DNA of 64,000 nucleotides, from assembly GCA_963719495.1 (NCBI GenBank), contig CAVRCI010000005.1:1-64000 (forward strand), written 5' to 3'. Source of the DNA: an uncultured Verrucomicrobiae bacterium. Lineage in GTDB: Bacteria > Verrucomicrobiota > Verrucomicrobiia > Chthoniobacterales > JAATET01. The notes beneath the pieces were generated by a model. It was given only the letters and a program-made list of their open reading frames with translations, did no database searches and was not told where the DNA came from. A program made the translations under genes and the position numbers. Shown here in pieces: positions 36,853-51,341 of the stretch (positions within the stretch are counted from its first letter, which is position 1; the number at the start of each line of letters is the position of its first letter).

Positions 36853-39057
36853 CTACGCGGTAGCGACCGCCGTGTAGCTGAGGCACGCGATCTCTTCGAG
36901 CGTCGTTTGGCCGCCGAGGACCTGAATCAGCCCTTCCTGATACAACGACAACACCCCCTCGCGGTTCGCCACCTTCCGCATCTCACTCTGCGGCGCGTTC
37001 CGCGCAATCATGTCGGAAATCTCTCCGCCGACCTCGCACATTTCCATGAGAGCCACCCGACCCGCGTAACCCGTCTCCGCGCACTCCGGACATCCTCCCG
37101 GCAGGTAGAACAGACTCTGGTCCCCCGCCACCACAACCCCGTTCCGTCCAAACCGCTCGCGCATCTCCTCCGTGATCTCCGCCGGGCGTTTGCAATGCGG
37201 ACAAAGCCGCCGCACGAGCCGCTGCGCCTGCGAGAGGGCAAGGGAGTCCGCCAGCAGATACGGCGCGACGCCCATGGAGATCAGGCGCGAGACGGCGCGC
37301 AGCGAATCGTTCGCGTGCAGCGTCGTGAGCACCAAGTGCCCGGTGAGCGCGGCGTTCACCGCCGCCGAGGCCGTCTCTTCATCGCGCGACTCCCCGATGA
37401 GAATGACGTCCGGGTCCGCTCGCAAAATGCGCCGCAGTCCCTCACCGAAATCAATCCCGTTGATCGGGTCGATCTGGGTCTGATTGATCCCCTCGATCTC
37501 GTATTCGATCGGATCCTCGATCGTGTGAATGTTGATCGACTCGTTGTTGATGCTGTTGATGAACGCATACAGCGACGTCGTCTTTCCGCTGCCGGTCGGC
37601 CCGGTGACGAGCACGAGACCCTGATCGCGAGTGAGCGTGTTCTTCACGATACCGGATTGGCGCGCGGACAGGTTCAGCTCGCTCAACTCCTTCACGCCAT
37701 CGCGTTTGTCCAGGAAGCGGATCGTGATTTTTTGCAATTCCTTGCTGCACGGGATCGCCGAGACGCGGCAATCGATCCGCCGCTGTCCGATCCGCATCCC
37801 GAAGCGCCCGTCCTCCGCCGTCTGCCGGCGCTGACCCATGTTCGAGTAATTTTTCAACAGACTCACCAGCCGCGGCAGGAGGTCCTCCGAGCACGAGTGG
37901 ATGAGATTGAGCTCCCCGTCGATCCGCGCCCGCAGCCGCGCGGTGTTGAAATACTTTTCCACGTGCAGATCACTCGCGCCCTGCGACGCCGCTCGGTAGA
38001 GGACCCATTGGACGATCTGCTCGGGCGTCGTGTTGATGTTCTCCGGATTGATCCGCTGCATCTCGCCCGGATCGATTTCCACGACGTTCGCGTCGTCCGA
38101 GTAGATCAGCTCCCGCTCCGCGACCTCGGCTCCGCCCGCCACGGCGCGGCCGCGATTTCGGTTGATCGCTTCGCGGATGCCCTCCGCGTCGGCGAGCACG
38201 TTGATGATCCGCACCGCATCCTGACCGCTGGACAACCATTCGTCCTCGAACGTGTAGTTGTCGCGGTCCGACGCCAGCAGGTAGATGACCCGCTTGCCGA
38301 TGTAGAGCGGGTAAACCGTGTGCTTCTCGAGCAGCACGTCCGGAAAGATCTCCTGCGCCGGGGTGAGTTCCGGCGCAAAAATCGGCTTTCCGGTCGTCAA
38401 ATAATTAAAAGCCGGCCCATGACTCGGCGGCAGCAGCCGGTAATCGCCGACCCGCCGCATGTCGATCTCGCCGAAGGAATGCTCGCTCTGCCGCAGCTTT
38501 TCCGCGTCGCCCTCCGACATCGGGTAGTTTGCCAGCATCCACCGCGTTGCCGTCCGCAATCCCGTGTTCCGCTCCGGCCCCTCGACGCCCTCGACCGGGC
38601 TCGTGGCCGCCAGCGGCGTCATCCGCACCCGCTCCATCACGTCGCCCAGCAGCCGTTCGTATTGCGCCCGCCCGACGAGCACCCGCTCGAAGAGGTAATG
38701 CGGCATCCCCCACGACTCGACCGTCGACGGATCGTAGTGCGCGCAGAGCAGCACCGGCCCGACCGCGCCGAATGGCAACCAGGGAGCGTCCGCGTCGCTC
38801 GCCCGCGCCACTTTTCGAAAAATCTGCTCCGCCCGCGTCGAGCACGCCGCCCGCGTGAGATCGTAGGGCACCATCGAGAATTTCTCGGCCAGCCACTCGA
38901 GCGCTTCGTCCGCGCCCACGCCGTTCGAAGCCGCGATCGTTTCGACGAAAAGATCCCCCTCCCGCGAGGCGGCCGGGGGACAAAACAACCCCCGCTCCTC
39001 GAGCAATCCGCTCAACCGCGAGGTGGGGAATTCGACTTCTTTCGCTTCGACCTGCAA
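36853..39057 (-). CDS. pilB: PilB/GspE assembly ATPase
   Basis: ASDLH, GPTGSGKTT, TIEDPIE, LRADPD, TGHLVLTTLHAN, CPHC/CPEC zinc motif. Confidence 0.9.
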   Translation of the reverse strand: MQVEAKEVEFPTSRLSGLLEERGLFCPPAASREGDLFVETIAASNGVGADEALEWLAEKFSMVPYDLTRAACSTRAEQIFRKVARASDADAPWLPFGAVGPVLLCAHYDPSTVESWGMPHYLFERVLVGRAQYERLLGDVMERVRMTPLAATSPVEGVEGPERNTGLRTATRWMLANYPMSEGDAEKLRQSEHSFGEIDMRRVGDYRLLPPSHGPAFNYLTTGKPIFAPELTPAQEIFPDVLLEKHTVYPLYIGKRVIYLLASDRDNYTFEDEWLSSGQDAVRIINVLADAEGIREAINRNRGRAVAGGAEVAERELIYSDDANVVEIDPGEMQRINPENINTTPEQIVQWVLYRAASQGASDLHVEKYFNTARLRARIDGELNLIHSCSEDLLPRLVSLLKNYSNMGQRRQTAEDGRFGMRIGQRRIDCRVSAIPCSKELQKITIRFLDKRDGVKELSELNLSARQSGIVKNTLTRDQGLVLVTGPTGSGKTTSLYAFINSINNESINIHTIEDPIEYEIEGINQTQIDPINGIDFGEGLRRILRADPDVILIGESRDEETASAAVNAALTGHLVLTTLHANDSLRAVSRLISMGVAPYLLADSLALSQAQRLVRRLCPHCKRPAEITEEMRERFGRNGVVVAGDQSLFYLPGGCPECAETGYAGRVALMEMCEVGGEISDMIARNAPQSEMRKVANREGVLSLYQEGLIQVLGGQTTLEEIACLSYTAVATA

Positions 39058-39084
39058 GACTCCGGCAGTGTTGCGCCAAACCCC

Positions 39085-39651
39085 CTACGGCGCAACCACG
39101 ATCCCGGCCCCCGCGACCCCCACGTCCAGCGCTTTGAAGAACTTCCCCGTCCACTGCAACCGCACGACGTTAGGATCACTCGAACCCACTGCCGTGAATT
39201 CCGTGGGGACAAACGGCGATCCCGGGACGTCCGCGACCGGCGTCTTGAGGAGCATCAGCACCGCCTCCTCGTCCGCGAATCCGCTCGCCGCCGCGTTCGG
39301 CACCGTCTCCACGACCTGCCCGTAGTGCGTGACCGCCCGGTTGAGGAATTCCATCGCGTCCCCCGACACGCCGGACTTCGCGGCCGACAACAGCCCGCCG
39401 AGCCGCGGGATCGCGATCGCCGCCAGGATCCCGATCACCGCGATCGTCACCAACATCTCCGGCAACGAAAACCCCCTCCGGCCAGCGGCAGCTCGTCCCA
39501 AATCCGGAGGGCGAGGCTCCGCCAAGCCGTGATCTCCACGCGACGGTCGCAGCGTTTTCAGTCCACACCGTCCCGCAAGGCGCACGCCAACCACGGAAGC
39601 CACGGCTCGGCGGAGCCTCGCCCTCCGATCTGGGGACACGCTTCGCGGCAT
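39085..39651 (-). CDS. prepilin/pseudopilin with a family C REP pair in its extended leader
   Basis: G|FSLPEMLVTIAVIGILAAIAIP. ATG lies 2 nt after the upstream stop. Confidence 0.85.
   Translation of the reverse strand: MPRSVSPDRRARLRRAVASVVGVRLAGRCGLKTLRPSRGDHGLAEPRPPDLGRAAAGRRGFSLPEMLVTIAVIGILAAIAIPRLGGLLSAAKSGVSGDAMEFLNRAVTHYGQVVETVPNAAASGFADEEAVLMLLKTPVADVPGSPFVPTEFTAVGSSDPNVVRLQWTGKFFKALDVGVAGAGIVVAP
39506..39626. repeat. REP-like family C inverted pair inside the prepilin reading frame
   Basis: Arms 39506-39531 and 39601-39626. Confidence 0.92.
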
Positions 39652-39653
39652 AC

Positions 39654-40136
39654 TCAATAGGGCACGGCCGCCCCGCCCTTGGTCAGGTCCAGCTTGCGCA
39701 GCGTCAACACGTCATTCGGCAGATCCATTCCGTAGCCGCCCGGCACGTATCCCGCCAACGTCGCCGGTGCGAACGCCAGATAGGGCGCGGCCAACGCGTA
39801 GCGAGCCGGGTCGTCGGTTGCCCCCGACCACGCGCTGTTCGCGACCGATTTTCCTTTCGCCTGAACGAACGCCGCCGTCGCCAGATTGAGCGCCTCCGCC
39901 CGGGCGATCGCCAGGTGCGTTTCGCTGTCGTCCTTCACTTGCACGATGTTCGGAATCGCCAGGAATACGATCACGCCCACCAAAGCCACCGCCACGAGGA
40001 CCTCGACCAACGAAAACCCGGTGTAGCGGCGGTCTGTGACCGCCGCACTTCTCGTCGACAGCTTGTCGAGCGTTCCCGCTTCACGTCCCCGGCGCTCACA
40101 GAGCGCCGCTACAGGCAAATGCGACCATTCCCTCAT
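39654..40136 (-). CDS. prepilin/pseudopilin with a family B REP pair in its leader
   Basis: MREWSHLPVAALCERR...AAVTDRRYTG|FSLVEVLV. ATGA overlap with the upstream stop. Confidence 0.88.
   Translation of the reverse strand: MREWSHLPVAALCERRGREAGTLDKLSTRSAAVTDRRYTGFSLVEVLVAVALVGVIVFLAIPNIVQVKDDSETHLAIARAEALNLATAAFVQAKGKSVANSAWSGATDDPARYALAAPYLAFAPATLAGYVPGGYGMDLPNDVLTLRKLDLTKGGAAVPY
40022..40113. repeat. REP-like family B inverted pair inside the prepilin leader
   Basis: tgtagcggcggtctgtgaccgccg / cggcgctcacagagcgccgctaca. Confidence 0.92.
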
Positions 40137-40567
40137 GGCCCGACCTGCACCTTGGGGTAGCTCCCCGCCGTCCACGTGGAAAACGTGACGTATTTACCCG
40201 TTTTCTCCATCGCGTCCGTGTTGAGCGCATCGCCGATCGTCGCGTGAGCTTTCAATTGATCTTTCGTCGACTTCGAGATGTAGGGCTCAATCAGGGCAAC
40301 CTTCTGCGCCACGGTTGTCTGCGCCTCGTAGAACGACCTCGCCGCATCGAGACTTCCCCGGCCCGTGACCGAACTCGCCTTGGAAACCCAGGTATTGAGC
40401 GCCTCCTGCAGCACCGCCTGCTGCTGCTTGACGACCACGCCCCGCGCATCCTGCGTCGCATTCGCGAACGAGGCGACCACCATGGACGCCATCACGCCGA
40501 TGATCGCGATTACGATGATCAACTCGATCAACGAAAACGCCCGGAAAGTTGTTGAGCCGATTTTCAT
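40133..40567 (-). CDS. prepilin
   Basis: MKIGSTTFRA|FSLIELIIVIAII. Confidence 0.9.
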   Translation of the reverse strand: MKIGSTTFRAFSLIELIIVIAIIGVMASMVVASFANATQDARGVVVKQQQAVLQEALNTWVSKASSVTGRGSLDAARSFYEAQTTVAQKVALIEPYISKSTKDQLKAHATIGDALNTDAMEKTGKYVTFSTWTAGSYPKVQVGP

Positions 40568-40582
40568 GAAACCTTTCGCCGC

Positions 40583-40611
40583 AAAAGCCCCCGGCGTTTC
40601 CGCCGGAGGCT
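40583..40611 (-). terminator. intrinsic terminator after the putative major pilin
   Basis: Minus strand agcctccggcg-gaaa-cgccgggggct-ttt. Confidence 0.75.
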
Positions 40612-40645
40612 GGTGCGTTACAACGGGGTTGTTTCCCGGTGCAAA

Positions 40646-41062
40646 TTAATCGGCGGTGCCGCCACCTCCCTTTACGTAAGAAAAACCACTTCCAGCAGCG
40701 TAGTTGAGATATTGACGAACATTTGCGTCGTAATCTCCTACCGCCATGTCCAGTTTGTATGAATCCCCGGCAATATCTGGCGTGTCAGCGTCGACCACTC
40801 CAGCGATCATTTTTGTGACAGCCAAAGTCCCTGTACCCTCAGTGAAAGGATACCCCGCGGCACGCGCCGTCGAAGAAACCGAGGCAATCGTTTGTGCGTT
40901 CCGCTGATCGCTCGCAGTATTTGCACCACTGGTCAGCCCAGCAATATTCGGAATGGCGATCGCCGCGATGATACCGATGACGGCGATGACGACGAGGAGT
41001 TCGATCAAGCTGAAGCCCTTGCGGAGTGCAGCTTTCATTCTGAGTGGCGATTTTGTTTTCAT
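40646..41062 (-). CDS. putative major type IV pilin
   Basis: RKG|FSLIELLVVIAVIGIIAAIAIP, own upstream region and terminator, AT-richer 3' half. Confidence 0.88.
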   Translation of the reverse strand: MKTKSPLRMKAALRKGFSLIELLVVIAVIGIIAAIAIPNIAGLTSGANTASDQRNAQTIASVSSTARAAGYPFTEGTGTLAVTKMIAGVVDADTPDIAGDSYKLDMAVGDYDANVRQYLNYAAGSGFSYVKGGGGTAD

Positions 41063-41135
41063 GTGGTTTTGGTTTGTTGGTTGAGGTTTTTCCTAACGCA
41101 ACGAAGAATCCACCACACGAAACCATGCGTCGAGT

Positions 41136-41170
41136 CAGGGAATCCCCTATTTTCTCATAGGGAAACCCTG
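41136..41170. promoter_or_regulatory. imperfect inverted repeat upstream of the pilin; candidate response-regulator site
   Basis: cagggaatcccctat-tttctc-atagggaaaccctg. Confidence 0.5.
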
Positions 41171-41253
41171 TAGCGCCTCAGAAGCAACCAACCCTGGAAC
41201 CGGCTCCAGCCGATCACCAACCCACAGCGCGAAGCGCCTGCCACCTCAACGCA

Positions 41254-41922
41254 TCAAGGCTCGATGATGTGATTGCGGATCGCATACCGCACCAGATCGC
41301 TGAACGTCGCCATCCCGAGTTTCCGCATGACCGCCGCCCGGTGCGTCTCCGCCGTCTTGACGCTGATCCCCAGCGTGGTCGCAACCTCCTTGTTGCTCTT
41401 GCCCTCCGCCAACAACTGCACCGTCTCCCGCTCCCGCAACGTCAGCCGCGATTCCTCACCCGCCTTCGCTTCCCAGCCCTCCGCATCCGCGGTCGCCCCC
41501 GCTTTCAGATAAGCGTCGAAGACCAAGTCGCTCACCTTCGAGCTGAAATACCGTTTGCCCTCGCCCACCGTGCGGATCGCCTTGAGCAGGTGCGTGCCCA
41601 CGTCCGACTTCAGCACGTAACCGGCGGCGCCCGCCTGAAACACCTCGTGCACGAGCCGCTCCGCGTCGTGCATCGTGAAGATGATCACCTTCGAATCCGG
41701 AGCGACCCGCCGGATCTGCCGCGTCGCGTCGATCCCGTTGAGTTCCGGCATAGAGATGTCGAGCAGCACGACGTCGGGCTGCAATTTCTCGGCCTGCTGC
41801 ACCGCGTCCCGCCCGTCGACCGCCTGACCGCAAACGCGACAGCAATCCTCACCTTCGATCATCGCCGCGATCCCCTGCCGCACGATCTCGTGGTCGTCGG
41901 CTATCAGGATTTTCAATTTCAT
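41254..41922 (-). CDS. NarL/FixJ-family response regulator
   Basis: IADDH, LDISMP, LuxR HTH LTLRERE..GKSNKEVA..ISVKTAETHR. Confidence 0.95.
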   Translation of the reverse strand: MKLKILIADDHEIVRQGIAAMIEGEDCCRVCGQAVDGRDAVQQAEKLQPDVVLLDISMPELNGIDATRQIRRVAPDSKVIIFTMHDAERLVHEVFQAGAAGYVLKSDVGTHLLKAIRTVGEGKRYFSSKVSDLVFDAYLKAGATADAEGWEAKAGEESRLTLRERETVQLLAEGKSNKEVATTLGISVKTAETHRAAVMRKLGMATFSDLVRYAIRNHIIEP

Positions 41923-41966
41923 CGCGCGGGGGTTACGGGAGTTTCCCGATGCCGTTTCTACGAAAC

Positions 41967-43013
41967 TCACCCCGCGATCGGATGGCAATCCAAAGAAACG
42001 AACGCCTGCACCTTCGTTCCAGCCGCGCTACCCGTCACCGAAAGGGTCCCGCCGAACTGCTCGATCCGCTCCCGCATTCCCAAGAGACCGACGCCCAAAG
42101 GGGCCATGGCGCCGCCCTCCCCGTCGAGTCCCACCCCATCGTCCGCGACTTGGACGGCCACCCCGGCCTCCAAGGCCTCGATCGAAATCTCCACCCGCGT
42201 CGCGCCCGAATGCCGGTGCACGTTCGACAGCGATTCCTGCACGACGCGAAAGAGCGCGGTGGCCACGTCCGACGGCAGCCGCGGCATCTCCGTCGCCGCC
42301 TTCAAGTCGACGACCGTCCCCGTCCGCTTCGTGAATCCATCGATGAACAGCCGGACCGCAAAAACCAGCCCCACCTCGTCGAGCAGCGGCGGGTGCAGCA
42401 GGTGCGAGATGGTTCGAATCTCGTCGCAGCACTGATTCGCCATTCCGCGCGTCTCGTCGACGATCCGCCGAGCCTGCGGACTCCGGTCGCCCGGCAGACC
42501 GTCGAGAATCGCCAGATTCATCTGGATCGCCGTGAGGACCTGCGCCGTCGAGTCGTGCAATTCCCGGGCGATCCGCCGCCGCTCGTCGTCCTGCGCGGCC
42601 AGCAATTTCCCCGAGAGCTGCCGCCGCTCATCGTCCGCCGCCCGCAACGAGTCGCTGAGCCGCTCGATCTCGCGCGCGAGCAACGACACCTCGTCGCGGC
42701 CCGCCGTCGCGAGCTTCAGCGGCTTCCCGCGCGCCTCCGCAACGCTCCGCTGCAGGTTGCGAATCGGTGCCAGCACCGCCCGGTCCAGCCCGAAAAAAAC
42801 CAGGAGAAACAATCCGCCACCCGCGACGGTGAACGCCACCAGCAGCACGCTCACGAATTGCCGCCGCGTCTCCACCGCCGAAGTCAACGGGTCCATCGCC
42901 GCCCCGCCGTCGAGAAACCCCGCCACCAATTGCGTCGAAAGCACGAACACCCCCGAAAAGAGCAGCACCATCGCGCCCGCGAAAATGAGCAGCGTCTTCG
43001 TGCGAATCTTCAT
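41967..43013 (-). CDS. HisKA_3 sensor histidine kinase
   Basis: Two TM segments, HAMP-like region, ERRRIARELHD, QESLSNVHRH, DDGVG, GLLGMRER. Confidence 0.93.
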   Translation of the reverse strand: MKIRTKTLLIFAGAMVLLFSGVFVLSTQLVAGFLDGGAAMDPLTSAVETRRQFVSVLLVAFTVAGGGLFLLVFFGLDRAVLAPIRNLQRSVAEARGKPLKLATAGRDEVSLLAREIERLSDSLRAADDERRQLSGKLLAAQDDERRRIARELHDSTAQVLTAIQMNLAILDGLPGDRSPQARRIVDETRGMANQCCDEIRTISHLLHPPLLDEVGLVFAVRLFIDGFTKRTGTVVDLKAATEMPRLPSDVATALFRVVQESLSNVHRHSGATRVEISIEALEAGVAVQVADDGVGLDGEGGAMAPLGVGLLGMRERIEQFGGTLSVTGSAAGTKVQAFVSLDCHPIAG

Positions 43014-43021
43014 AATTCAAG

Positions 43022-43079
43022 GGAGTGAGGCCGTCCCGTCCTCATGAATGCATTCGCGCGGACGAGACGTCCCCACTCC
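43022..43079. repeat. REP-like inverted pair (GGAGTG..CGTC.CGTCC)
   Basis: ggagtgaggccgtcccgtcc / ggacgagacgtccccactcc. Confidence 0.7.
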
Positions 43080-43086
43080 GATAAAT

Positions 43087-44352
43087 TCACCGCACCACCC
43101 CCGGCGCGCTCACCGCCGCCGGCGGCTTCGTCTTCGGCAGCATGATCTTGCTCAACGAGAAGATCGGGCCGTAAATCGCGTAAACCAGCAAACCCACGAA
43201 CACCCCCATCACCACGATCGTGATCGGCTCGAGAATCTTGTCGATCTGACCCGCGATCGTGTCCAGGTCGTCCTCGTAGTCCGCCGCGATCTCGTCGAGC
43301 ATCTCGTTCGCGCTGCCGGTCTCCCCCGCGATCTGCATCATCGCCGCCATCATCCGCCCATCCGGTCCGAGCCGCCCCGACTCCTGCAAAAAACTCTCCG
43401 GCAGCGACTCGCCCTCCGCCACGCGGTCACGGATCACCAGAAAAAATTCCCGAAAGTCCACGTGTGAAGAACTCGCCGCCACGATCTCGAGCGCCGTGCT
43501 GATCCGCACCCCCGCCTGCAGCAACATCGCGAGCACGCGGAAACTTACCGCCGCCGCCGACTTCCGAATGATCGGCCCCACCGTCGGCACCTTGACGATG
43601 AACCGCTGCACCGCCGGGATCCGGTAAATTTCCGGCCACTTCTTGAAAAAATAAAACAGCCCCACGAAAGGCAGCACCGCCAGGTAGGGTCGGTGCAGCA
43701 GCAGGTCCGAGAGCCACATCATGGCCCGAGTCGCCAACGGCAACCCCGCGCCCATCGACGCGTAGAGCTTCGCGATCGCCGGCACCAACGTGAAGCTCAT
43801 CACGATCACCACCGTCACCGCGATGAACAGCACGATCGCCGGATAGATCATCCCGCCTTTCAGCTTTTTGATGATCCGGAGCGTCTTCTGGTTGCCCGTC
43901 GCGATGCGCTGACACACCAGCGACAATTGACCCGATTCCTCGCCCGCCCGCACGAGGGCCAGCACGTCATCGGTGAACAGCTTCGGGTAACGCCCGAGCG
44001 CGTCGCTAAATTTTTCCCCCTCCAAGATTTGCTGGATCACCCCCGCGATCGCGCCGCGATACGCCGGCGACTTCACCCGCCCGGCCTGCATCCCGAGCGC
44101 CTTCACCGCCGAAATATTCCGGTCGAGGCAGCGCCCCAACCCCCCGAACAACGCGATGCGATCCTCGATCGTCGGCTTCTTCCCGGTCGAGCGATGCGTG
44201 AATTCGTCCGCGCCCGTGATCGACTTCACGACCGCCGTCTCCGTCACCGCCTTCCCCGATCCCAGGATCGCCAACTCGTCGTCGTCCGTGTCGACCATGA
44301 GGACCGTCCGCTTCGCCGTGATCGTGTCCGTGAGGGTAACCTGCTTCAGCAT
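43087..44352 (-). CDS. PilC/GspF platform protein (second, divergent copy)
   Basis: AGEESGQL, MIYPAIV, ILEP, IYGPIF. Confidence 0.88.
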   Translation of the reverse strand: MLKQVTLTDTITAKRTVLMVDTDDDELAILGSGKAVTETAVVKSITGADEFTHRSTGKKPTIEDRIALFGGLGRCLDRNISAVKALGMQAGRVKSPAYRGAIAGVIQQILEGEKFSDALGRYPKLFTDDVLALVRAGEESGQLSLVCQRIATGNQKTLRIIKKLKGGMIYPAIVLFIAVTVVIVMSFTLVPAIAKLYASMGAGLPLATRAMMWLSDLLLHRPYLAVLPFVGLFYFFKKWPEIYRIPAVQRFIVKVPTVGPIIRKSAAAVSFRVLAMLLQAGVRISTALEIVAASSSHVDFREFFLVIRDRVAEGESLPESFLQESGRLGPDGRMMAAMMQIAGETGSANEMLDEIAADYEDDLDTIAGQIDKILEPITIVVMGVFVGLLVYAIYGPIFSLSKIMLPKTKPPAAVSAPGVVR

Positions 44353-44363
44353 CCGCAAAAAAA

Positions 44364-44786
44364 TCAGCGCACCGTCGGCCGCACCAGCTCCATGTCGTGA
44401 CTCCGCGTCGCGCTCGCGTCGCCGCCCGTCCACGTCCCCGCCGACCACGAACCGGTCGCCGCCGAAGCCCGGACGACCAGCGTGCAAGTCGTCCGCTCCA
44501 TCGACAACCCATCGACGTCGACCAGCACCGCCGGACTCGGCGAGAACGTCACCGACACCACGGCGGGATCCGCCGGGAGCAGAGCCGCAATCTCGTTGGT
44601 GTTCATCCCGAGATGGTAAAGCCGCGCCGCCTGCTCTTGAAGGTTTAACGCCCGCGCGACCCGCGCGTTCGCCTCGCCCTGCGCCGTGACCGCGAGCGTC
44701 ATCGACACCGCCGCCAACACCGCCACCGCGAGGATCGCGCCCGCGACCATCACTTCGACCAGCGAATATGCGCCCTTCCGGCTCAC
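44364..44786 (-). CDS. minor pilin (PilV/GspI-like)
   Basis: MSRKGA|YSLVEVMVAGAIL. GTGA overlap. Confidence 0.8.
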   Translation of the reverse strand: MSRKGAYSLVEVMVAGAILAVAVLAAVSMTLAVTAQGEANARVARALNLQEQAARLYHLGMNTNEIAALLPADPAVVSVTFSPSPAVLVDVDGLSMERTTCTLVVRASAATGSWSAGTWTGGDASATRSHDMELVRPTVR

Positions 44787-46117
44787 GGCGAAAACACCTC
44801 CAACCAGCCGTCCCGCGCCGTGAGCTGATCCAGCAAGCGCGGCTCCGGCTCCCGGGCAAAAGTCAGCGTCCCGGTCGGCACCGTGACGTCCCGATCCGAC
44901 CGCAGACCGCCCCGGATTCCGAGAGCGGGCGAGCTGATGTTCAGAGTCAGCGGGCAATTTTCCAGCGTGAAAATCCCCCGCCATTCAGCCGCCGCCCCCG
45001 ACAGGAAATTAAAGTTCACGCCAGTTCCATCCAGCTTCTTCACCGCGAACACGAGCTTCCGTTCACTGAACCCGGTAAAATCCACATTGACCAAGTCCGG
45101 TGATCCCAACGGCTGAACGAACACGACGAGCAACGCGATGTGGAGATCGGCCGCATCGCCCTCGGCCACGGTCGTCTGACCGGTGAATACGATCCGCGAT
45201 GTATTCCCCTCGATGAAAACGGCCTCCAGATTCGGGTTCGACAAATCGAGCGTCACCGTCCCAGCCCCGTCCGAGCTCCAGCCCACCCCGCTCGTGCCAC
45301 TGGTCCCGTCGACGAGCACCGGGCTCTTCAACTTCGCAAAGAGCTCATTCGGGCCCCCGCCATTCTTGATCACGTTCAACCGCCCGGCGAAATCCGCAGA
45401 CGTCCCGACATCTCCACTCGTCCGCGCGACGAACGGGAAGTTCGCCACCAGCACGTCGGGCGGCAAGCTCGACGGCGCGTTGAAGGTCGTCGCTGAGATC
45501 GAGCCCGCGCCCGCGAACCACACCACCGCTTCACCCAGCACACCGACGGATCCCGACACCAGGGTCGTCGGTGCCGCGTTGAGCGTCGGCTTGTTTCGGG
45601 TCAGCAACGTTCCCGCCAACTCCGGCGAATAAGAACGCAGCAAAACATTCCGGACGGTCGGAAAAGGATCGCCCGCCACCGCGGCCAACGCGACCGACCG
45701 CGTGACCGAGAAACCGGCACCGTCGGCCGGATTAAAGTGATTCCAACCATTCGGACCGACCGTGGACTCGAGCGGAACCAGCGCGGACCCAATCGCCGCC
45801 GTCGACATCACCCCCCAACCACCGCCCACGTCGGCGGTGACCGCCGGCGCGTTTGCGACATTCTTTGTCAGCAGACGCGTCGCGAAATACTGCCGCGCCA
45901 ACGCCGTCGCGTTCAGCTCGGCCACCCGCCGCTGCGAAGCATCCGTCATCGTCTCCACGTAAGCCGTCTCCGCCGACATCACCGCCACCCAACCCGCCGA
46001 CAGCGCCCCGCCCACCAGGATCACCACCAACACAATGAGTAACACCCCTCCCCTTGAGGAGCGGCGATTTTCAATCGCCGAACCAACCCTCAGGCGAAGC
46101 CTCATCCCCCCCCTCAT
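44783..46117 (-). CDS. PilX/GspK-like minor pilin with a family D REP in its leader
   Basis: MRGGMRLRLRVGSAIENRRSSRG|GVLLIVLVVIL, no E5. ATGA overlap. Confidence 0.75.
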   Translation of the reverse strand: MRGGMRLRLRVGSAIENRRSSRGGVLLIVLVVILVGGALSAGWVAVMSAETAYVETMTDASQRRVAELNATALARQYFATRLLTKNVANAPAVTADVGGGWGVMSTAAIGSALVPLESTVGPNGWNHFNPADGAGFSVTRSVALAAVAGDPFPTVRNVLLRSYSPELAGTLLTRNKPTLNAAPTTLVSGSVGVLGEAVVWFAGAGSISATTFNAPSSLPPDVLVANFPFVARTSGDVGTSADFAGRLNVIKNGGGPNELFAKLKSPVLVDGTSGTSGVGWSSDGAGTVTLDLSNPNLEAVFIEGNTSRIVFTGQTTVAEGDAADLHIALLVVFVQPLGSPDLVNVDFTGFSERKLVFAVKKLDGTGVNFNFLSGAAAEWRGIFTLENCPLTLNISSPALGIRGGLRSDRDVTVPTGTLTFAREPEPRLLDQLTARDGWLEVFSP

Positions 46118-47211
46118 AACGCCGGAAACATCGGAACCGCAAAAAACAGCGAAGTCCGCCCCCCCATGCCCGCGTAGCTCGCCCGCGCCTCCGTCGCGCC
46201 GTCGGCCCCCACGGTCGCCGCCCCGAAATCCATCGCCGCCGGATCCGGCCACCAAAGAAAATAAAACGGCCCACCCCGCGCCACCTTCAACCGATCCACG
46301 GCATCACCCTCCACCGACACCCGCCGCGCCGACCGTTCGAACGCCACGACCACCGGACTGAACGCGACCGACCCGCCGCCCGCAATCTCCGGGTAAAACA
46401 CATCGTAAAAATCCGTCATCGCCGTCCCCACGTAGCGCCGCACGCTCACGTAAGTCCCCTTGGGCGAAGTCGTCGTCACGAAATCAACGTCGTAAATCGC
46501 GTGCACTACCAACTCCTCCGGATCCGCCGAAGGTTGCAGCAAAAACACCGACGCGTTCTGAGCCCCCGACGCACCGCGGTAGGACACGAAGGCCGCCGGA
46601 TTCGGGAGCAAAGCCCGAAACGCGTCCGGCGAATCCGTCCCCCGCCCGACCGCACCCGCCGCCACGGCAATAATCTGCGGACGTTGCTCGTTCAGCCCGC
46701 TGCGACCCAGACAGAAGACCGCGCTCGACCGCCCGACATCCTCCCAGAACAAATCGCGCAACCGATCCGCCGCCGCCCGCCGCCCGTAATTCGGAGCCAC
46801 GAACGCGTCCGTCCCCACGGCGTCGAGCCCATAGAAATTGAGCATCGCCGGCTTCCCGATCGTCACGAACTCGAACGTTGCCGTCGCCCGCCGCCCCGCG
46901 CCCAGACTTTGAAAAACGATCACCCCCACCGTGATCACCGCCACCCCGATCGCGAGAGCCACCGCCACCTCCACCAACGAGAAGCCCCTCGTCCAAGGGT
47001 AGGGCAGCCGGGCCCCGGGTGCCGTCGCCTTCACGCTCGCGCGCCCGACCCGACCGATTCGCTCCGCCAAGCCGGGGGTCTCGCGAGATAGCGGTCCCGC
47101 ATCCGAAGAACCTCGCGATTGGTGAAAGAAGTGGGCACCCGGCGGCGCGGCTGCCCTACCCGGGCAACGAAGCCGCCGGCGGCGGCTGAGGCTACCGGGC
47201 GGCGCGAGCAT
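46114..47211 (-). CDS. PilW/GspJ-like minor pilin with a family A REP pair in its leader
   Basis: ...ARLPYPWTRG|FSLVEVAVAL. ATG 47211 has GGAGG upstream; alternative start GTG 47034. Confidence 0.78.
   Translation of the reverse strand: MLAPPGSLSRRRRLRCPGRAAAPPGAHFFHQSRGSSDAGPLSRETPGLAERIGRVGRASVKATAPGARLPYPWTRGFSLVEVAVALAIGVAVITVGVIVFQSLGAGRRATATFEFVTIGKPAMLNFYGLDAVGTDAFVAPNYGRRAAADRLRDLFWEDVGRSSAVFCLGRSGLNEQRPQIIAVAAGAVGRGTDSPDAFRALLPNPAAFVSYRGASGAQNASVFLLQPSADPEELVVHAIYDVDFVTTTSPKGTYVSVRRYVGTAMTDFYDVFYPEIAGGGSVAFSPVVVAFERSARRVSVEGDAVDRLKVARGGPFYFLWWPDPAAMDFGAATVGADGATEARASYAGMGGRTSLFFAVPMFPAL
46997..47161. repeat. REP-like family A inverted pair
   Basis: gggtagggcagccgggccccgggtgcc / ggcacccggcggcgcggctgccctaccc. 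Confidence 0.88.
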
Positions 47212-47833
47212 CTTTCGCCACCTCCCGCGGCTGCTTGGTCACGACCATCGGCACCCGGCTTCCGTTCGCTCCCGCCGCCGCGGAGCCGCCGCTCAGCGCC
47301 TCCGTCACGCGCGGCTCCAGCCGGATCGGGATGAAGATCTTCCGCGTCGGCTCGCTTGGCTGCGTCTCGATCCACTCGATTTCCATCACCGTTTCGAAGA
47401 TTTGGACCACCCGCAGCGTCTGCGTCTGACCCTCGAGCACGGGCGGAAGCGTCGTCCCATTCTCCAGGATCAAATCGCCGAAGAGCACCTTCCACCCATC
47501 CGCGCCCCGCGTCCGCCCCGTCACGCGCAGTCCGTCCAGCACGGCGCGGATCTGATTCTCCTCGCTGGCCGTGTTGTCCGGAGCCTCTTCGATCTCGAGC
47601 TTCGGCACCTCTTTTTTGGCAAATGGATTCCGCGCCGTCTCCGCCACCGACGCCGCCCGACGATCACCCGGCAGGATCCCGACCGCATCCGCGACGTCCT
47701 GCGACCAACCCGTTGACAAAAACGTCAGCGAGACCAAGGCGGCGACCAACCATCTCGCGATCCCCGCTCCCGGCCCATCCGCGGAATCCGCAAAATCCGC
47801 GGTCCAAAAAAATTCACCGTCCGAGGTCTTCAT
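47192..47833 (-). CDS. PilP-like/alignment-complex hypothetical protein
   Basis: ATGA-coupled, hydrophobic signal, RNPF motif. Leader contains an ATCCG-type repeat (TADFADSAD). Confidence 0.65.
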   Translation of the reverse strand: MKTSDGEFFWTADFADSADGPGAGIARWLVAALVSLTFLSTGWSQDVADAVGILPGDRRAASVAETARNPFAKKEVPKLEIEEAPDNTASEENQIRAVLDGLRVTGRTRGADGWKVLFGDLILENGTTLPPVLEGQTQTLRVVQIFETVMEIEWIETQPSEPTRKIFIPIRLEPRVTEALSGGSAAAGANGSRVPMVVTKQPREVAKDARAAR

Positions 47834-48384
47834 GGTGCCGCCGTCACCTCCTTCGCGAGCAGCGGCACGTCGAGCACGAGATTGAGCCGGATGTCGTTGC
47901 CGTTCTCGCCGCGCACAATTTTGAGGTCCGTCACCCGTGACGACGGCATCGTCTCCTCGACCTGTCCGAGCCAATTGAGCGTCTTCGCAAAATCATCTTC
48001 AAAGGTCAGGTGCGCCCGCAGCACCCGCGGGATCGCGTCGTTCCCCGCGTTCGCCGCGACTTCGAAGCGCTGCGCCAGCGTGACGAGACCAGCCTCCTTC
48101 ACCCGTGAAGCGACGTTCAGCTCGCCGCCTTCCGGCGTGTCGACCTGCGACAGCGGACCCACCCACGCGTCGAGAAATTCCCGCATCGCGGCCGACGTCT
48201 CCTCGATCCCCCGCATGGCCGCGCGCTCCGTCCCGAGCAGCAGCTCCGTCCCGCCAGCCAGGGCCTGCGCGTCGGCCACCTCGTTCTGCAAAGCCACCAG
48301 ACGCTTACGCACCTCGACCACACCTTGAAGCATGAGCAAGGCGAGCAGTCCGACGACGATCACCGCGAAGTGCTTGCGGTTCAT
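47830..48384 (-). CDS. PilO-like protein
   Basis: N-terminal TM, coiled coil and beta-rich C-terminus. Assignment is positional. Confidence 0.65.
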   Translation of the reverse strand: MNRKHFAVIVVGLLALLMLQGVVEVRKRLVALQNEVADAQALAGGTELLLGTERAAMRGIEETSAAMREFLDAWVGPLSQVDTPEGGELNVASRVKEAGLVTLAQRFEVAANAGNDAIPRVLRAHLTFEDDFAKTLNWLGQVEETMPSSRVTDLKIVRGENGNDIRLNLVLDVPLLAKEVTAAP

Positions 48385-48953
48385 TCGTCCGCCCCCCCGC
48401 CGGTTTGCCGGATGAGCGTGGCCTCGTAGGCGATCTGATTCCCCTCCTGACTCTGCTGCGCGGAGAATGGCCGGAAATCGGCACCCCGCACGGCGGCGAT
48501 CACGGGTTCCAACGCCGCGCCTTCGCTGGCCTGCAATTTGATCGCGATCTGCACCTGCCGGTCCGTCGCGGTGTCTCGGCTCAGGTCGAGTTCCACGATG
48601 GCCGCCCGCTCGGAGACGCTGTCCGCGACGGCGACCGCGAGCGGCTGGAGATTCGCCGATCCTTCGACCCAGCGCAGAACGTCGCTCGCGCGCTTGGCCT
48701 TGGTCTCGAGCGCGGCGCGTTCGATCTTCGTCCGCTCCAGGTTGGTCTGCGCCTCCGCCCCGCGCTCCCGGGCGGCCAGCAGCTCGCCGTTGGCCTGACC
48801 AATTTGCAGGATCGTCACCGTCGAGAGCACGATGGCCGCGAAGGTGCAGAGGTAAAACAGGAGCGGCACCAGTCGCAGCGTCACCGCCAGCGGCGGCAGC
48901 ACGTCGGGCCGACCCATCTTCAGGTCGTGAACGGTCTCCGGCGCGATGATCAC
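48381..48953 (-). CDS. PilN-like protein
   Basis: TM plus coiled coil. Assignment is positional. Confidence 0.65.
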   Translation of the reverse strand: MIIAPETVHDLKMGRPDVLPPLAVTLRLVPLLFYLCTFAAIVLSTVTILQIGQANGELLAARERGAEAQTNLERTKIERAALETKAKRASDVLRWVEGSANLQPLAVAVADSVSERAAIVELDLSRDTATDRQVQIAIKLQASEGAALEPVIAAVRGADFRPFSAQQSQEGNQIAYEATLIRQTGGGADE

Positions 48954-48987: not shown

Positions 48988-49881
48988 TCATCGATCCGCC
49001 AGCACGCTCCACAGTTGATCGTCCCGTCCGTGCTCCACGATCTCGGCCTTCGGGAGTCTTTCGCGCAGCGCGCCAAGCATCGCCGAATCGGCGTGATCGG
49101 CCGCGAAATGCACCACCGCCCCGCCGTCCAACCGCGCGATCAGCGGCTCGAGAATTTTGGTCACCGGCTCGACGTCCCCGTCCTTGTAGAGATCGCTCCG
49201 CGACCGCAGGTCCGTCCACAGCTCGCCCGATTCGAGCATCGCGCACACCGACCCCTCGCAACACACCACGAACAAAACGCTCGAACGCCGGGCGGTCGCC
49301 TCCTCCTTCTCCCGGCCCGCCTTCCCGCCCGGATGCACGATCTCGAGCAGCCGCCGGAGCATCGCGTAGGTCCCGCAAGAGATCCGGCCGACGCTCAACC
49401 CGGCATCGCGCAACACACCCTCGGTTTGTTTGATCTGCTCCTCTTCGACGGTCAGCAGGATGGTCGCGACGCTCTCGGGATTATTCGTCAGAGCGTAGCG
49501 CTTCCCCCGCTCGTAACGTCCGCCGAGCACCGCGCGTGGATTCGATCGCAGCAACTGCTCGATTCCGGGTTTGCGCGAAACGTTCGTCTCGAGGCTGATC
49601 ACGTAGCGGGCGTTCAGCGACACCGCGCACCACCCGTCGTCGGTGAGCGCCCGCCACTCCGCCGCCATCGCCGCAGCGATTTCCTTGAAATCTCCAGCCT
49701 GCTCGCCGCCCTCGACGAACTTCCCGTTTCGGGCCACGCCCTTCCACGAGGTTTGCCCACGCCCGACGTTGAGAAGCAGCGTCCGCTTTCCCGCAAACCG
49801 CCGCGCCCAGGACTCCGCCGGATCGTCCGGCTCGGGTCGGAACGCCCGGAAGGCCAGCACGCTCTTGATGTCGGCCAGCAT
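48988..49881 (-). CDS. PilM-like cytoplasmic protein
   Basis: Soluble protein preceding the PilN/O-like genes. Assignment is positional. Confidence 0.55.
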   Translation of the reverse strand: MLADIKSVLAFRAFRPEPDDPAESWARRFAGKRTLLLNVGRGQTSWKGVARNGKFVEGGEQAGDFKEIAAAMAAEWRALTDDGWCAVSLNARYVISLETNVSRKPGIEQLLRSNPRAVLGGRYERGKRYALTNNPESVATILLTVEEEQIKQTEGVLRDAGLSVGRISCGTYAMLRRLLEIVHPGGKAGREKEEATARRSSVLFVVCCEGSVCAMLESGELWTDLRSRSDLYKDGDVEPVTKILEPLIARLDGGAVVHFAADHADSAMLGALRERLPKAEIVEHGRDDQLWSVLADR

Positions 49882-50933
49882 CAGACCTCGATCCTCCCCT
49901 GCGCATCGAGGTAATCCTCGACCTCTTCGCGACCAAATCCCGTCGGCCGCGGCGAGCTGCTGCGGAACCCATCGGCCTCCCGCAGCTCGATGCTTTTGTC
50001 GAAATTATTCATCCCGCGTTTCCAGCCGGTCTCGAGTTCCTGGTCCAATTTTTTGAAATCCCCGCGCCGGATGAGGTTCACCACCCCATCGTATTGCAGC
50101 AGCACCTCATGGATCGGGAACCGCTTGTTCTTTTCGGTGTCGAGCATCAGGCGCTGACACAAAATCAGCCGCAAACAATCGGCCATCGTCGCCTGCGCGG
50201 TCTCCATCCGGTCCGACGGAATCAATTTGAGAAAACGGCTCACCGTCTGCGCGGCCGACGACGTGTGGAGCGTCGCCACCACCGCGTGCCCGGTCTCCGA
50301 CGCCTGCAGCGCGATCTCCGCCGTCTCGCCATCGCGAATCTCGCCCACCACGATCACGTCCGGAGCCTGCCGCAGAGCCGCCCGCAGTGCTCCGGCGAAA
50401 TCGTGTTCGTCGCTGCCCATCTCCCGCTGCGACACCAGCGAGGGATAGGTCTCCGGGTAAACGAACTCGATCGGATCTTCGAAGGTGATCACGTGCTCCC
50501 GCCGCCGCTCCGCCCGATACCGCACCATCGAGGCGATCGTCGTCGACTTGCCGCTGCCCGTCGCCCCGCACACGAGAAAGAGCCCGTTCTTGCTCTCGAG
50601 AAAAGCTTTCAGCGCCGGCGGTGGGATTTGGATCGCGTCCGGATCGGGAATGTCCCGCGGCAGGAGACGCAGCACCCAGCGAAACCGCCCCTTCGTCACC
50701 ATCCGGCTCACGCGGAACCGGTGCGGCCCGATGTCCATCGCGTAATCCAAACACCCGGCGTGCATCTCGGGCAAGGCCGCCGGTTCGTAGCGAAAGTCGT
50801 CGATGATGAGTTCGCCGTTCGTCTTGTAACAAAGCGGGTCCCCCGGCGTGACGTAGAAATCACTGACGCCGGAATCCTCGGCAAGCGCGACGATGCGCGC
50901 GCCGAGCGGGGAATGTGCGGTGACGTCGTCCAT
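49881..50933 (-). CDS. pilT: PilT/PilU-family retraction ATPase
   Basis: GATGSGKSTT, TFEDPIEF, ALRQAPDVIVVGEIRD, ETGH..TLHT. Confidence 0.88.
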   Translation of the reverse strand: MDDVTAHSPLGARIVALAEDSGVSDFYVTPGDPLCYKTNGELIIDDFRYEPAALPEMHAGCLDYAMDIGPHRFRVSRMVTKGRFRWVLRLLPRDIPDPDAIQIPPPALKAFLESKNGLFLVCGATGSGKSTTIASMVRYRAERRREHVITFEDPIEFVYPETYPSLVSQREMGSDEHDFAGALRAALRQAPDVIVVGEIRDGETAEIALQASETGHAVVATLHTSSAAQTVSRFLKLIPSDRMETAQATMADCLRLILCQRLMLDTEKNKRFPIHEVLLQYDGVVNLIRRGDFKKLDQELETGWKRGMNNFDKSIELREADGFRSSSPRPTGFGREEVEDYLDAQGRIEV

Positions 50934-50948: not shown

Positions 50949-51341
50949 GAACCACGGATGGACACGGATGAACCCAGATGGTCTCAAAAACTTCGGCGCA
51001 ACCATCCCCCAAACCTGTTCTCGTTGCGAGGACCCCGAACGCGCCAGCGAGTCGGGAAGCCGGGGATGACATTGGCAACCCCGCGGCAGCAGCCGCCCCC
51101 ATCGGGCATTCGGAGGGCGAGGCTCCTGCCGAGCCGTGGCCTTCACGTTGGATTCGGCCCACGCAGACCGATGTCATTGGCAGCGAAGTGAAAGATCTCC
51201 GGCCTCGCCTGCGAAACCGCCCACCACCCAGGAAAGTCAGAGATCCTTCGCTCCGCTCAGAATGACAAGATTGCAAAAAGCGATCCGCGTTCATCCGTGT
51301 CCATCCGCGGTTCCTCATCAAGTATGTCCATCCGTGGTCCC
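50949..51341. repeat. nested cluster of three or more REP-like families
   Basis: An outer IR (50949-50979 / 51283-51313) encloses a family C arm (51112-51139) and a TGTCAT..GATCT pair (51172-51198 / 51241-51267). Confidence 0.85.

What the first reader, a model, noticed from the sequence alone, without database searches (positions are those of the whole stretch)
39085..47833. Prepilin leader peptides colonised in frame by several different REP-like palindromes
Seen: five genes of one pilus cluster carry a palindromic repeat between the start codon and the cleavage site or hydrophobic segment, each from a different family. They are family C (39506-39626), B (40022-40113), D (46058-46080), A (46997-47161) and an ATCCG-type repeat (47777-47803). 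The same families occur intergenically elsewhere in the window (34083, 36741, 51112; 35392; 36014; 27213, 56218; 50949). Reading frames stay open and most starts are coupled to the upstream stop. Established: prepilin peptidase removes the leader; coding palindromic insertions are known from Rickettsia RPEs; translated REP-like hairpins can affect mRNA stability and translation. Inference: disposable leaders act as a safe haven for repeats, and the hairpins may tune minor-pilin stoichiometry. I do not know of this being described for pilus loci.
Basis: partly seen in the sequence, partly recalled or inferred. Interest (0 to 1): 0.85.

Follow-up and report, generated by a model that had tools for sequence, protein, structure and literature searches.

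The report
Mobile repeats inside pilus-gene leader peptides
Five neighbouring genes of a pilus-building operon in a soil-type verrucomicrobial genome each carry a different selfish DNA repeat just after the start codon, in frame, in the short stretch of protein that stays inside the cell and, in the pilins, is cut off, so the repeats seem to be tolerated passengers, not a new machine.

Summary
Four multi-copy palindromic families (A, B, C, D; 43-109 units genome-wide) and one nonamer array sit at the stated places, just downstream of start codons shared with relatives. The closest relative has 5-9 aa leaders at those starts; this genome has 40 (B), 76 (A) and 60 or 10 (C) aa. From the shared start, all 5 gene frames are stop-free, against 2 of 10 other frames.

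Translation through the repeat is unavoidable for B and D and for one arm of A. A strong Shine-Dalgarno site supports it for all of A and for E. C is ambiguous, because a TTG lies just after the repeat.

- Only A, B and C are prepilins; D and E are membrane-anchored or signal-type proteins.
- E's repeat is tandem, not palindromic.
- Genome-wide, open frames across upstream REPs are at chance level.
- Prepilin genes overall are not significantly enriched (5/49 vs 209/3423).
- In-frame REPs also occur in ClpB, a DNA ligase and an Omp85 protein.

This is in-frame REP insertion, known from Rickettsia and Opitutus, in a niche I found in no paper. The scan noted the same in at least eight other genomes. 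A regulatory role is untested.

The parts
46114..47211 (-). Gene A: prepilin-like protein of 365 aa. A 76-aa leader runs from ATG 47211 to G|FSLVEV (F codon at 46983).
   Evidence: ORF. ATG 47211 has the Shine-Dalgarno site GGGAGGTG 7 nt upstream (-11.1 kcal/mol). It aligns with the start of the G004 ortholog (score 72 vs shuffled mean 38.4, max 54), whose leader is MRGRFGRVG. Pfam N_methyl scores 16.8 bits, below the 21.2 cut-off.
46997..47161 (-). Family A inverted pair (REPIN-like). Arms at 46997-47026 and 47134-47161.
   Evidence: Fold -110.3 kcal/mol, z -5.1. No ATG, GTG or TTG lies between the 3' arm and the cleavage site.
39654..40136 (-). Gene B: prepilin of 160 aa with a 40-aa leader (34 aa if TTG 40118 is used). 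ATG 40136 overlaps the upstream TGA.
   Evidence: TIGR02532 scores 18.9 bits (cut-off 16.3) at residues 40-61. The G004 ortholog starts at the same ATGA with leader MTRRAA.
40022..40113 (-). Family B inverted pair. Arms at 40022-40046 and 40090-40113; the outer ends carry GTAG/CTAC.
   Evidence: Fold -54 kcal/mol, z -3.9. No ATG, GTG or TTG start lies between it and G|F.
39085..39651 (-). Gene C: prepilin with a 60-aa leader from ATG 39651, or a 10-aa leader from TTG 39501.
   Evidence: TIGR02532 scores 37.4 bits at residues 58-81. Orthologs have 5-19 aa leaders. The start is ambiguous.
39505..39628 (-). Family C inverted pair. Arms at 39505-39531 and 39597-39628.
   Evidence: Fold -92.5 kcal/mol, z -8.0.
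44783..46117 (-). Gene D: protein of 444 aa with an N-terminal membrane anchor and no family hit. A 24-aa N-terminal tail precedes the hydrophobic segment.
   Evidence: G005 and G012 orthologs have 10-aa tails and G002 has 13 aa (G002's GTG start read from the DNA alignment). The ATGA start is shared with G004.
46056..46089 (-). Family D REP unit (single hairpin) inside the N-terminal tail of D.
   Evidence: 109 units genome-wide. Two of them flank a Y1_Tnp gene at G000:C4:155919-156146 in inverted orientation. Fold -18.6 kcal/mol, z -1.9.
47192..47833 (-). Gene E: protein of 213 aa with a signal or anchor type N-terminus. It has about 25 extra residues between MK and the hydrophobic core.
   Evidence: ATG 47833 has the AAGGAGG site (-11.3 kcal/mol) and is shared with G004, G002 and G005. 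Orthologs begin directly with the hydrophobic core.
47777..47799 (-). Tandem nonamer array (CGGATNNNN type) within an insert of about 75 nt (47753-47827).
   Evidence: one of 12 nonamer arrays and 41 heptamer arrays of this motif in the genome. It is not a hairpin (z -0.8).
36853..39057 (-). GspE/PilB-type assembly ATPase at the end of the operon.
   Evidence: PF00437, E 3.4e-101.
43087..44352 (-). GspF/PilC-type platform protein.
   Evidence: PF00482, E 1.6e-42.
44364..44786 (-). Minor pilin m3 with the short leader MSRKGA|YSLVEV and no repeat (internal control).
40133..41062 (-). Pilins pil2 (40133-40567, 10-aa leader) and pil1 (40646-41062, 16-aa leader), both without repeats.
   Evidence: TIGR02532 over its cut-off for both.
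49881..50933 (-). PilT-family ATPase upstream of the cluster.
   Evidence: TIGR01420 at 275.7 bits (below the 319.1 cut-off); PF00437, E 1.2e-44.

Best explanation
Short dispersed repeats expanded in this lineage: REP/REPIN-type palindromes of families A-D and a simple nonamer array. Copies landed in a compact, translationally coupled type IV pilus-like operon. They survive only where the protein tolerates extra residues, which is the cytoplasmic N-terminal stretch between the start codon and the first hydrophobic helix.

In prepilins A and B, and perhaps C, that stretch is the leader that prepilin peptidase removes, so the mature pilin is unchanged. In D and E it is the tail in front of a membrane anchor or signal sequence.

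Shown here: the repeats are real families, they are insertions relative to the relatives, they lie behind conserved starts, and they are in frame and stop-free. Inferred: they are translated, giving Arg-rich leaders of 40 and 76 aa, and then cut off. The insertions are most likely neutral or slightly costly passengers filtered by selection. Any effect of the strong hairpins on expression is secondary and unproven.
For: Family status:
- 43, 59, 92 and 109 units genome-wide.
- D flanks a Y1_Tnp (RAYT-like) gene in inverted orientation.
- Family C gives only 0-8 matches in each of five congeners, so it expanded in this lineage.

Insertions behind conserved starts:
- The G004 orthologs start at the same ATGA or ATG with leaders MTRRAA (B), MKRRG (C) and MRGRFGRVG (A). 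E orthologs start directly with the hydrophobic core. D orthologs have 10-13 aa tails.
- ATG 47211 of A aligns with the G004 start (score 72 vs shuffled max 54). The insert begins just after the stop of the overlapping upstream gene.

Lack of alternative starts:
- No ATG, GTG or TTG lies between the repeat and G|F in B, nor between the 3' arm of A and G|F.
- D's second ATG is still upstream of the repeat.

Shine-Dalgarno sites: A's ATG -11.1 kcal/mol at 7-nt spacing, against -4.2 and -3.0 for the internal GTG and TTG; E's ATG -11.3.

Frames: from the conserved start, 5 of 5 gene frames are stop-free, against 2 of 10 other frames after discounting the upstream gene's own stop.

Outlier status:
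- 77 of 80 B orthologs have a start within 17 codons of the cleavage site.
- The distance from upstream stop to B cleavage has a median of 53 nt and a maximum of 140 (n=77); it is 116 here.
- The distance from B stop to C cleavage has a median of 66 and a maximum of 166 (n=64); it is 182 here.

Recurrence:
- In another genus (G012) the B leader holds a different 150-nt inverted heptamer-array element (-75.8 kcal/mol). It is multi-copy there (32 matches) and again has no downstream start.
- Four further prepilin ORFs in this genome have repeat sequence in the leader.

Other points:
- One A24 prepilin peptidase gene is present.
- Net charge of the extended N-termini is +11, +3, +11 and +6 for A-D, which fits cytoplasmic retention.
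Against: - There is no protein or ribosome data, so translation and cleavage are inferred.
- C can start at TTG 39501 right after the repeat, and two of its three frames are open.
- E could start at a TTG after the array, and its extended N-terminus is net -3.
- B's ATG has only a weak Shine-Dalgarno site (-3.9) and relies on coupling.
- Leaders of 40-76 aa are longer than nearly all orthologs' leaders, and their processing is untested.
- Genome-wide, the gene frame is open through upstream REP elements no more often than the other frames (53 vs 60 and 52 of 94). Most 5' REPs are therefore probably extragenic, and openness alone proves little.
- Prepilin genes as a class are not significantly enriched (5/49 vs 209/3423, p 0.22).
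- Hairpins of -54 to -110 kcal/mol inside a coding sequence could strongly impede ribosomes.
Confidence: 0.65

Rival explanations
1. The starts have moved. After the insertions, translation begins downstream of the repeats wherever a codon allows: C at TTG 39501, E at the TTG before VAALV, A at GTG 47034. The repeats then act as intercistronic or 5'-UTR REPs, as is usual between co-directional genes. Only B and D would translate repeat sequence.
For: - A TTG lies 10 codons before the C cleavage site, just 3' of the repeat. The ancestral ATG position of C is not conserved.
- Genome-wide, open frames across upstream REPs are at chance level.
- Di Nocera et al. 2013 (PMC3733652, passages seen) argue that most REPs at ORF N-termini are extragenic.
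Against: - The internal starts of A have poor Shine-Dalgarno sites (-4.2 and -3.0), whereas the conserved ATG has -11.1.
- Even from GTG 47034, one arm of A is translated.
- B and D have no downstream start.
- 5 of 5 gene frames are open against 2 of 10 other frames, which relocated starts would not require.
Confidence: 0.2
2. The insertions are adaptive regulators. The stable hairpins just inside each cistron slow ribosomes, uncouple translation from the upstream gene, or protect upstream mRNA from 3' exonucleases, and so set the low stoichiometry of minor pilins.
For: - The hairpins are very stable. They start 23-50 nt after the start codons (read), which is outside the initiation footprint.
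- That REPs stabilise mRNA and can lower translation when translated is established for E. coli (own knowledge, not re-read here).
Against: - Five unrelated repeat types, absent from the closest relative, look like independent recent hits, not a conserved device.
- E's repeat forms no hairpin.
- The same families sit in ClpB, a DNA ligase and an Omp85 protein.
- No expression data exist.
Confidence: 0.1
3. The operon is decaying in this lineage. The repeat hits mark relaxed selection, and the long open frames are chance in a GC-rich genome.
For: - The 34-57 kb region has the highest density of A-D units of all 844 sliding 23-kb windows (12 units vs a mean of 1.6). The families were chosen from this region, so the count is biased.
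- Single REP units are open in about 55-64% of frames by chance.
Against: - All 13 cluster ORFs are intact and 55-92% identical to G004.
- The G|FSL.E motifs are kept.
- The gene frames are selectively open.
- REP doublets elsewhere are open in only 1 of 6 cases per frame.
Confidence: 0.05

Closest known systems
Intragenic GTAG/CGTC-tagged REPs (Di Nocera, De Gregorio & Rocco 2013, PMC3733652; passages and supplement search seen)
   Same: - Short palindromic REP units and dimers lie in frame inside genes and encode 20-80 extra residues.
- The highest intragenic count they report is in a verrucomicrobium, Opitutus terrae.
- A DNA ligase is among their hosts, as it is here.
- RAYT-type Y1 transposases are present.
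- They note an excess at ORF N-termini.
   Different: - They regard most N-terminal cases as annotation artefacts.
- They list no pilin or prepilin: 0 occurrences in the text, and only a P. putida GspE in the supplement.
- Here the cleavage motif and the conserved starts show that the repeat lies inside the leader.
- Five different repeats sit in one operon.
Rickettsia palindromic elements (RPE; Ogata et al. 2000, 2002, as summarised in PMC10969869, passages seen)
   Same: Selfish palindromic elements of about 100-150 bp are inserted in frame in functional genes at permissive positions.
   Different: - The phylum is different and no sequence relationship was tested.
- RPEs encode a conserved peptide that stays in the mature protein.
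- Here the peptide sits in a segment that is probably removed by prepilin peptidase.
REP/REPIN-RAYT systems of Pseudomonas and E. coli (own knowledge; Bertels and Rainey papers not re-read here)
   Same: Inverted REP doublets form long hairpins. There are several families per genome. The Y1 transposase gene is flanked by its REPs, as seen here for family D.
   Different: Classical REPINs are extragenic. For families A-C I found no flanked transposase gene.
Long-leader type IVb and Tad prepilins (own knowledge)
   Same: Class III signal peptides longer than the 5-7 aa of type IVa pilins are processed by A24 peptidases.
   Different: Those leaders run to about 15-30 aa and are conserved within a family. 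Here leaders of 40-76 aa are lineage-specific and built from repeats.

Membership tests
REP/REPIN-type dispersed palindromic repeats | Short unit (about 20-40 nt) with an internal palindrome, present in many dispersed copies. | tested here: met
   A 43, B 59, C 92 and D 109 units at 80% identity or more over 70% or more of the unit. Hairpins. The E array does not meet this.
REP/REPIN-type dispersed palindromic repeats | Units often paired in inverted orientation (REPIN). | tested here: met
   An inverted partner lies within 250 nt for 14 of 43 A units, 36 of 59 B units and 24 of 92 C units, but 0 of 109 D units.
REP/REPIN-type dispersed palindromic repeats | A cognate RAYT (Y1 transposase) gene flanked by the REPs. 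| tested here: inconclusive
   11 PF01797 matches exceed the cut-off. D units flank C4:155919-156146 in inverted orientation. None was found flanked by A, B or C.
REP/REPIN-type dispersed palindromic repeats | GTAG or CGTC tag at one end of the unit. | tested here: inconclusive
   GTAG is read at the outer ends of the B arms (cTGTAGcggcg) and the A arms (gGGTAGGGc). It is not evident for C or D, and no family-wide alignment was made.
In-frame intragenic repeat insertion (RPE-like behaviour) | The element lies between a functional start codon and conserved protein sequence, in frame and without stops. | tested here: met
   Met for B, D and A, and probably for E. C is ambiguous.
In-frame intragenic repeat insertion (RPE-like behaviour) | The host protein with the insert is expressed. 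| not testable with these tools
   No RNA run is listed and no proteomics is available.
Prepilin (class III signal peptide, TIGR02532/PF07963) | G or A at -1, F/M/Y at +1, E at +5, followed by about 20 hydrophobic residues. | tested here: met
   A has TRG|FSLVEV, B has YTG|FSLVEV and C has RRG|FSLPEM. TIGR02532 is over its cut-off for B (18.9) and C (37.4). A gets only a sub-threshold Pfam hit. D and E do not meet this feature.
Prepilin (class III signal peptide, TIGR02532/PF07963) | A prepilin peptidase (A24) is encoded in the genome. | tested here: met
   PF01478 matches at C9:13946-14614, two stretches in one 377-aa frame.
Prepilin (class III signal peptide, TIGR02532/PF07963) | A short leader, typically 5-30 aa. 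| tested here: not met
   The leaders are 40 aa (B), 76 aa (A), and 60 or 10 aa (C). 77 of 80 B orthologs have a start within 17 codons of the cleavage site.
Prepilin (class III signal peptide, TIGR02532/PF07963) | The leader is actually cleaved and the N-terminus methylated. | not testable with these tools
   This needs biochemistry.

The most novel reading that the evidence does not exclude
Cleavable or cytoplasmic N-terminal leaders may be a general, cross-phylum sink where selfish palindromic repeats persist inside genes because the cell trims them off. In compact pilus operons the resulting hairpins may have been co-opted to set the output of minor pilins. If so, leader length and repeat content would be an evolvable expression dial, and prepilin peptidases would have to accept leaders of 40-76 aa or more.
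Probability: 0.12. Interest if true: 0.7.

Novelty: new variant of a known kind. Interest (0 to 1): 0.45.

Why it matters
- It gives a clean natural case in which an N-terminal intragenic REP can be shown to lie inside the coding sequence, because the prepilin cleavage motif and the conserved, coupled start codons bracket it. Elsewhere such cases are usually dismissed as annotation error.
- It suggests that prepilin peptidase and membrane insertion tolerate leaders several times the usual length. That can be tested directly and matters for pilin annotation: gene callers will mis-place these starts.
- It shows how selection filters selfish-repeat insertions in operons that have no intergenic space.
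- It does not reveal a new molecular system.

Tried and rejected
- Sequencing runs: no RNA holder is listed. One DNA run holds 12% of the sampled words. Laying its contigs gave only short fragments, no joint across a repeat and no allele without a repeat, so it says nothing on expression or polymorphism.
- Enrichment of prepilin genes for any short high-copy repeat at the 5' end: 5/49 vs 209/3423, odds ratio 1.75, p 0.22. Five of the 54 prepilin-like ORFs did not map to a predicted gene. Four of the 58 motif hits were dropped by eye as non-pilins (C1:405422, C1:116337, C2:434941, C11:130468).
- Genome-wide test for selection on open frames across upstream REPs: none found.
- The first k-mer repeat census was noisy (IS elements, a CRISPR repeat, GC-rich codon runs). 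I replaced it with unit searches.
- My home-made gene caller (3472 genes, 81% coding) missed pil1. By a boundary rule it also filed the A element of the focal cluster as intergenic.
- The 32-aa tail of D in G004 is single-copy in G004, so it is not a repeat.
- No Y1 transposase gene flanked by A, B or C was found.
- Pfam and NCBIfam give no family for the three genes in PilM/N/O position, nor for D or E. Those names are positional only.
- Pseudogene reading rejected: all cluster ORFs are intact and conserved.
- One search failed on a mis-set coordinate. It was corrected and rerun.
Full report
**What is there**

The window is the first 64 kb of contig C5 of a 4.54-Mb, 16-contig genome. Between 36.8 and 50.9 kb the minus strand carries a compact type IV filament operon:
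- a PilT-family ATPase (49881-50933);
- three conserved genes without family hits (48988-49881, 48381-48953, 47830-48384);
- E (47192-47833), A (46114-47211), D (44783-46117) and minor pilin m3 (44364-44786);
- a GspF/PilC platform protein (43087-44352);
- a histidine kinase and response regulator pair;
- pilins pil1, pil2, B (39654-40136) and C (39085-39651);
- a GspE/PilB ATPase (36853-39057).

Record titles of relatives name Verrucomicrobiota (Chthoniobacterales, Terrimicrobiaceae). The genome has one A24 prepilin peptidase gene.

**The repeats are real**

Units of families A, B, C and D occur 43, 59, 92 and 109 times in the genome. The copies in A, B and C are inverted doublets that fold at -110.3, -54 and -92.5 kcal/mol (z -5.1, -3.9, -8.0). 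The D copy is a single small hairpin (-18.6, z -1.9).

Family D flanks a Y1 transposase gene in inverted orientation, like a RAYT with its REPs. Eleven Y1_Tnp matches exceed the Pfam cut-off. Family C gives only 0-8 matches in each of five congeners, so it expanded in this lineage.

The E repeat is a tandem CGGATNNNN array, one of 53 such arrays (12 nonamer, 41 heptamer). It is not a palindrome.

**They are insertions behind conserved starts**

The operon is syntenic in relatives. In the closest one (G004, same genus):
- B starts at the same ATG overlapping the upstream TGA and has leader MTRRAA. Here 102 extra bases follow the second codon, giving 40 aa.
- C has MKRRG, against 60 aa here counted from the ATG after the B stop.
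- A has MRGRFGRVG, against 76 aa here.
- E orthologs start directly with the hydrophobic core, against 25 extra residues here.
- D orthologs in G005, G012 and G002 have tails of 10-13 aa, against 24 aa here.

For A, the ATG at 47211 aligns with the G004 start (score 72; 500 shuffles gave mean 38.4, max 54). The first six codons overlap the end of gene E in both genomes, and the insert begins right after E's stop.

**Which start is used**
- A's ATG has GGGAGGTG at 7 nt (-11.1 kcal/mol), while the internal GTG and TTG have -4.2 and -3.0.
- E's ATG has AAGGAGG (-11.3).
- B has no ATG, GTG or TTG between the repeat and G|F.
- In A none lies after the 3' arm.
- D's second ATG is still upstream of the repeat.
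- C is ambiguous. A TTG lies directly after the repeat and would give the ordinary leader MGRAAAGRRG.

From the conserved start to the cleavage site or helix, all 5 gene frames are stop-free. Only 2 of the 10 other frames are, once the upstream gene's own stop is discounted.

**How unusual it is**

Among 80 B orthologs from one-genome-per-species contigs, 77 have a start within 17 codons of the cleavage site. The other three are at 19, 28 and 31 codons.

The distance from the upstream stop to B cleavage has a median of 53 nt (maximum 140, n=77; 2 of 80 loci were dropped for odd gene length). It is 116 here. The distance from B stop to C cleavage has a median of 66 nt (maximum 166, n=64). It is 182 here.

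One relative in another genus (G012) has a different element in the same B leader. It consists of two inverted ATTTTGG arrays, folds at -75.8 kcal/mol, gives 32 matches in that genome, and again has no downstream start.

In this genome four more of 54 prepilin-like ORFs have repeat sequence in the leader: C2:392595, C5:140299, C13:237653 and C8:133040. In one of them the ATG lies inside the palindrome.

**Limits of the 'prepilin haven' idea**
- Only A, B and C have the G|FSL.E motif. B and C pass TIGR02532; A is sub-threshold in Pfam.
- Of 262 A-D elements, 204 are intergenic, 41 lie in open 5' extensions and 17 lie inside predicted cores.
- The core cases include in-frame copies in ClpB, an ATP-dependent DNA ligase and an Omp85 protein. 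The ClpB copy sits in a linker that is 6 aa longer than in chain 6dju_A.
- For 94 elements within 150 nt upstream of a gene, the gene frame is open in 53, and the other two frames in 60 and 52. Openness alone is therefore at chance level.
- Prepilin genes as a class are not significantly enriched.

The cluster itself is a hot spot. Five of its genes are hit, and the 34-57 kb region has the top density of A-D units of 844 windows. That count is biased, because the families were picked from this region.

**Reading**

Selfish repeats that expanded in this lineage hit an operon that has no intergenic space. Selection kept only in-frame, stop-free copies in the cytoplasmic N-terminal stretch. The GC-rich repeats encode Arg-rich peptides (net +11, +3, +11 and +6 for A-D), which suits a segment that stays in the cytoplasm. 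In the pilins that segment is presumably cut off.

This is the behaviour described for Rickettsia RPEs (PMC10969869, passages) and for intragenic REPs, most numerous in Opitutus terrae (PMC3733652, passages and supplement search). The difference is the niche, a leader that is removed. I found no paper describing that niche.

Earlier notes of this scan report the same in at least eight other genomes. One ortholog row rests on G016, which is unpublished; nothing depends on it.

Noticed in passing
G000:C1:363190-363214 (L119): A family C REP fragment lies in frame in ClpB (TEGEAPAEP), in the linker before the second ATPase domain. That linker is 6 residues longer here than in the M. tuberculosis ClpB chain 6dju_A.
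   Followed up: partly
G000:C11:155557-155619 (L120) and G000:C5:163726-163758 (L121): A family C doublet lies in frame in an 854-aa ATP-dependent DNA ligase. A family D unit lies in frame in an Omp85/POTRA protein, upstream of its POTRA domain. Di Nocera et al. list a DNA ligase of Opitutus terrae among REP-bearing genes.
   Followed up: partly
G000:C13:237608-237653: The only start codon (ATG) of one prepilin-like gene lies inside a 36-nt perfect palindrome of a 15-copy family, so the repeat itself supplies the start.
   Followed up: partly
L016:4565-4725 (G012): The B ortholog of another genus has a 150-nt element in its leader, with terminal inverted arrays of the heptamer ATTTTGG. The leader is 54 aa and the arrays occur at a dozen or more other places in that genome.
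   Followed up: partly
window 50955-51307: Two inverted CGGATGGACACGGAT arrays bracket about 320 nt that also holds a family C unit (51110-51140), just upstream of the PilT-like gene. This looks like a composite, MITE-like arrangement.
   Followed up: no
window 41254-43013: A NarL/LuxR-type response regulator and its histidine kinase sit inside the pilus operon, between the platform gene and the major pilins. They are conserved there in congeners.
   Followed up: no
window 53741 (minus strand): A prepilin-type N-terminus (MAA|FTLIEVLIVVAVIG) heads an ORF of about 800 aa, a giant pilin-like protein.
   Followed up: no
genome-wide (cluster 6): A repeat of about 32 nt ending in GGATTGAAAC occurs about 46 times. 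It looks like a CRISPR array repeat.
   Followed up: no
window 36907-39660 (plus strand): A 917-aa open frame runs antisense to the PilB-type ATPase gene. It is a shadow ORF typical of GC-rich DNA, not a gene.
   Followed up: no
window 40646-41062: The first pilin gene (pil1) lies in a lower-GC stretch (0.59 against about 0.65 around it), and my codon-usage gene caller did not call it. That would fit a recently exchanged major pilin.
   Followed up: no
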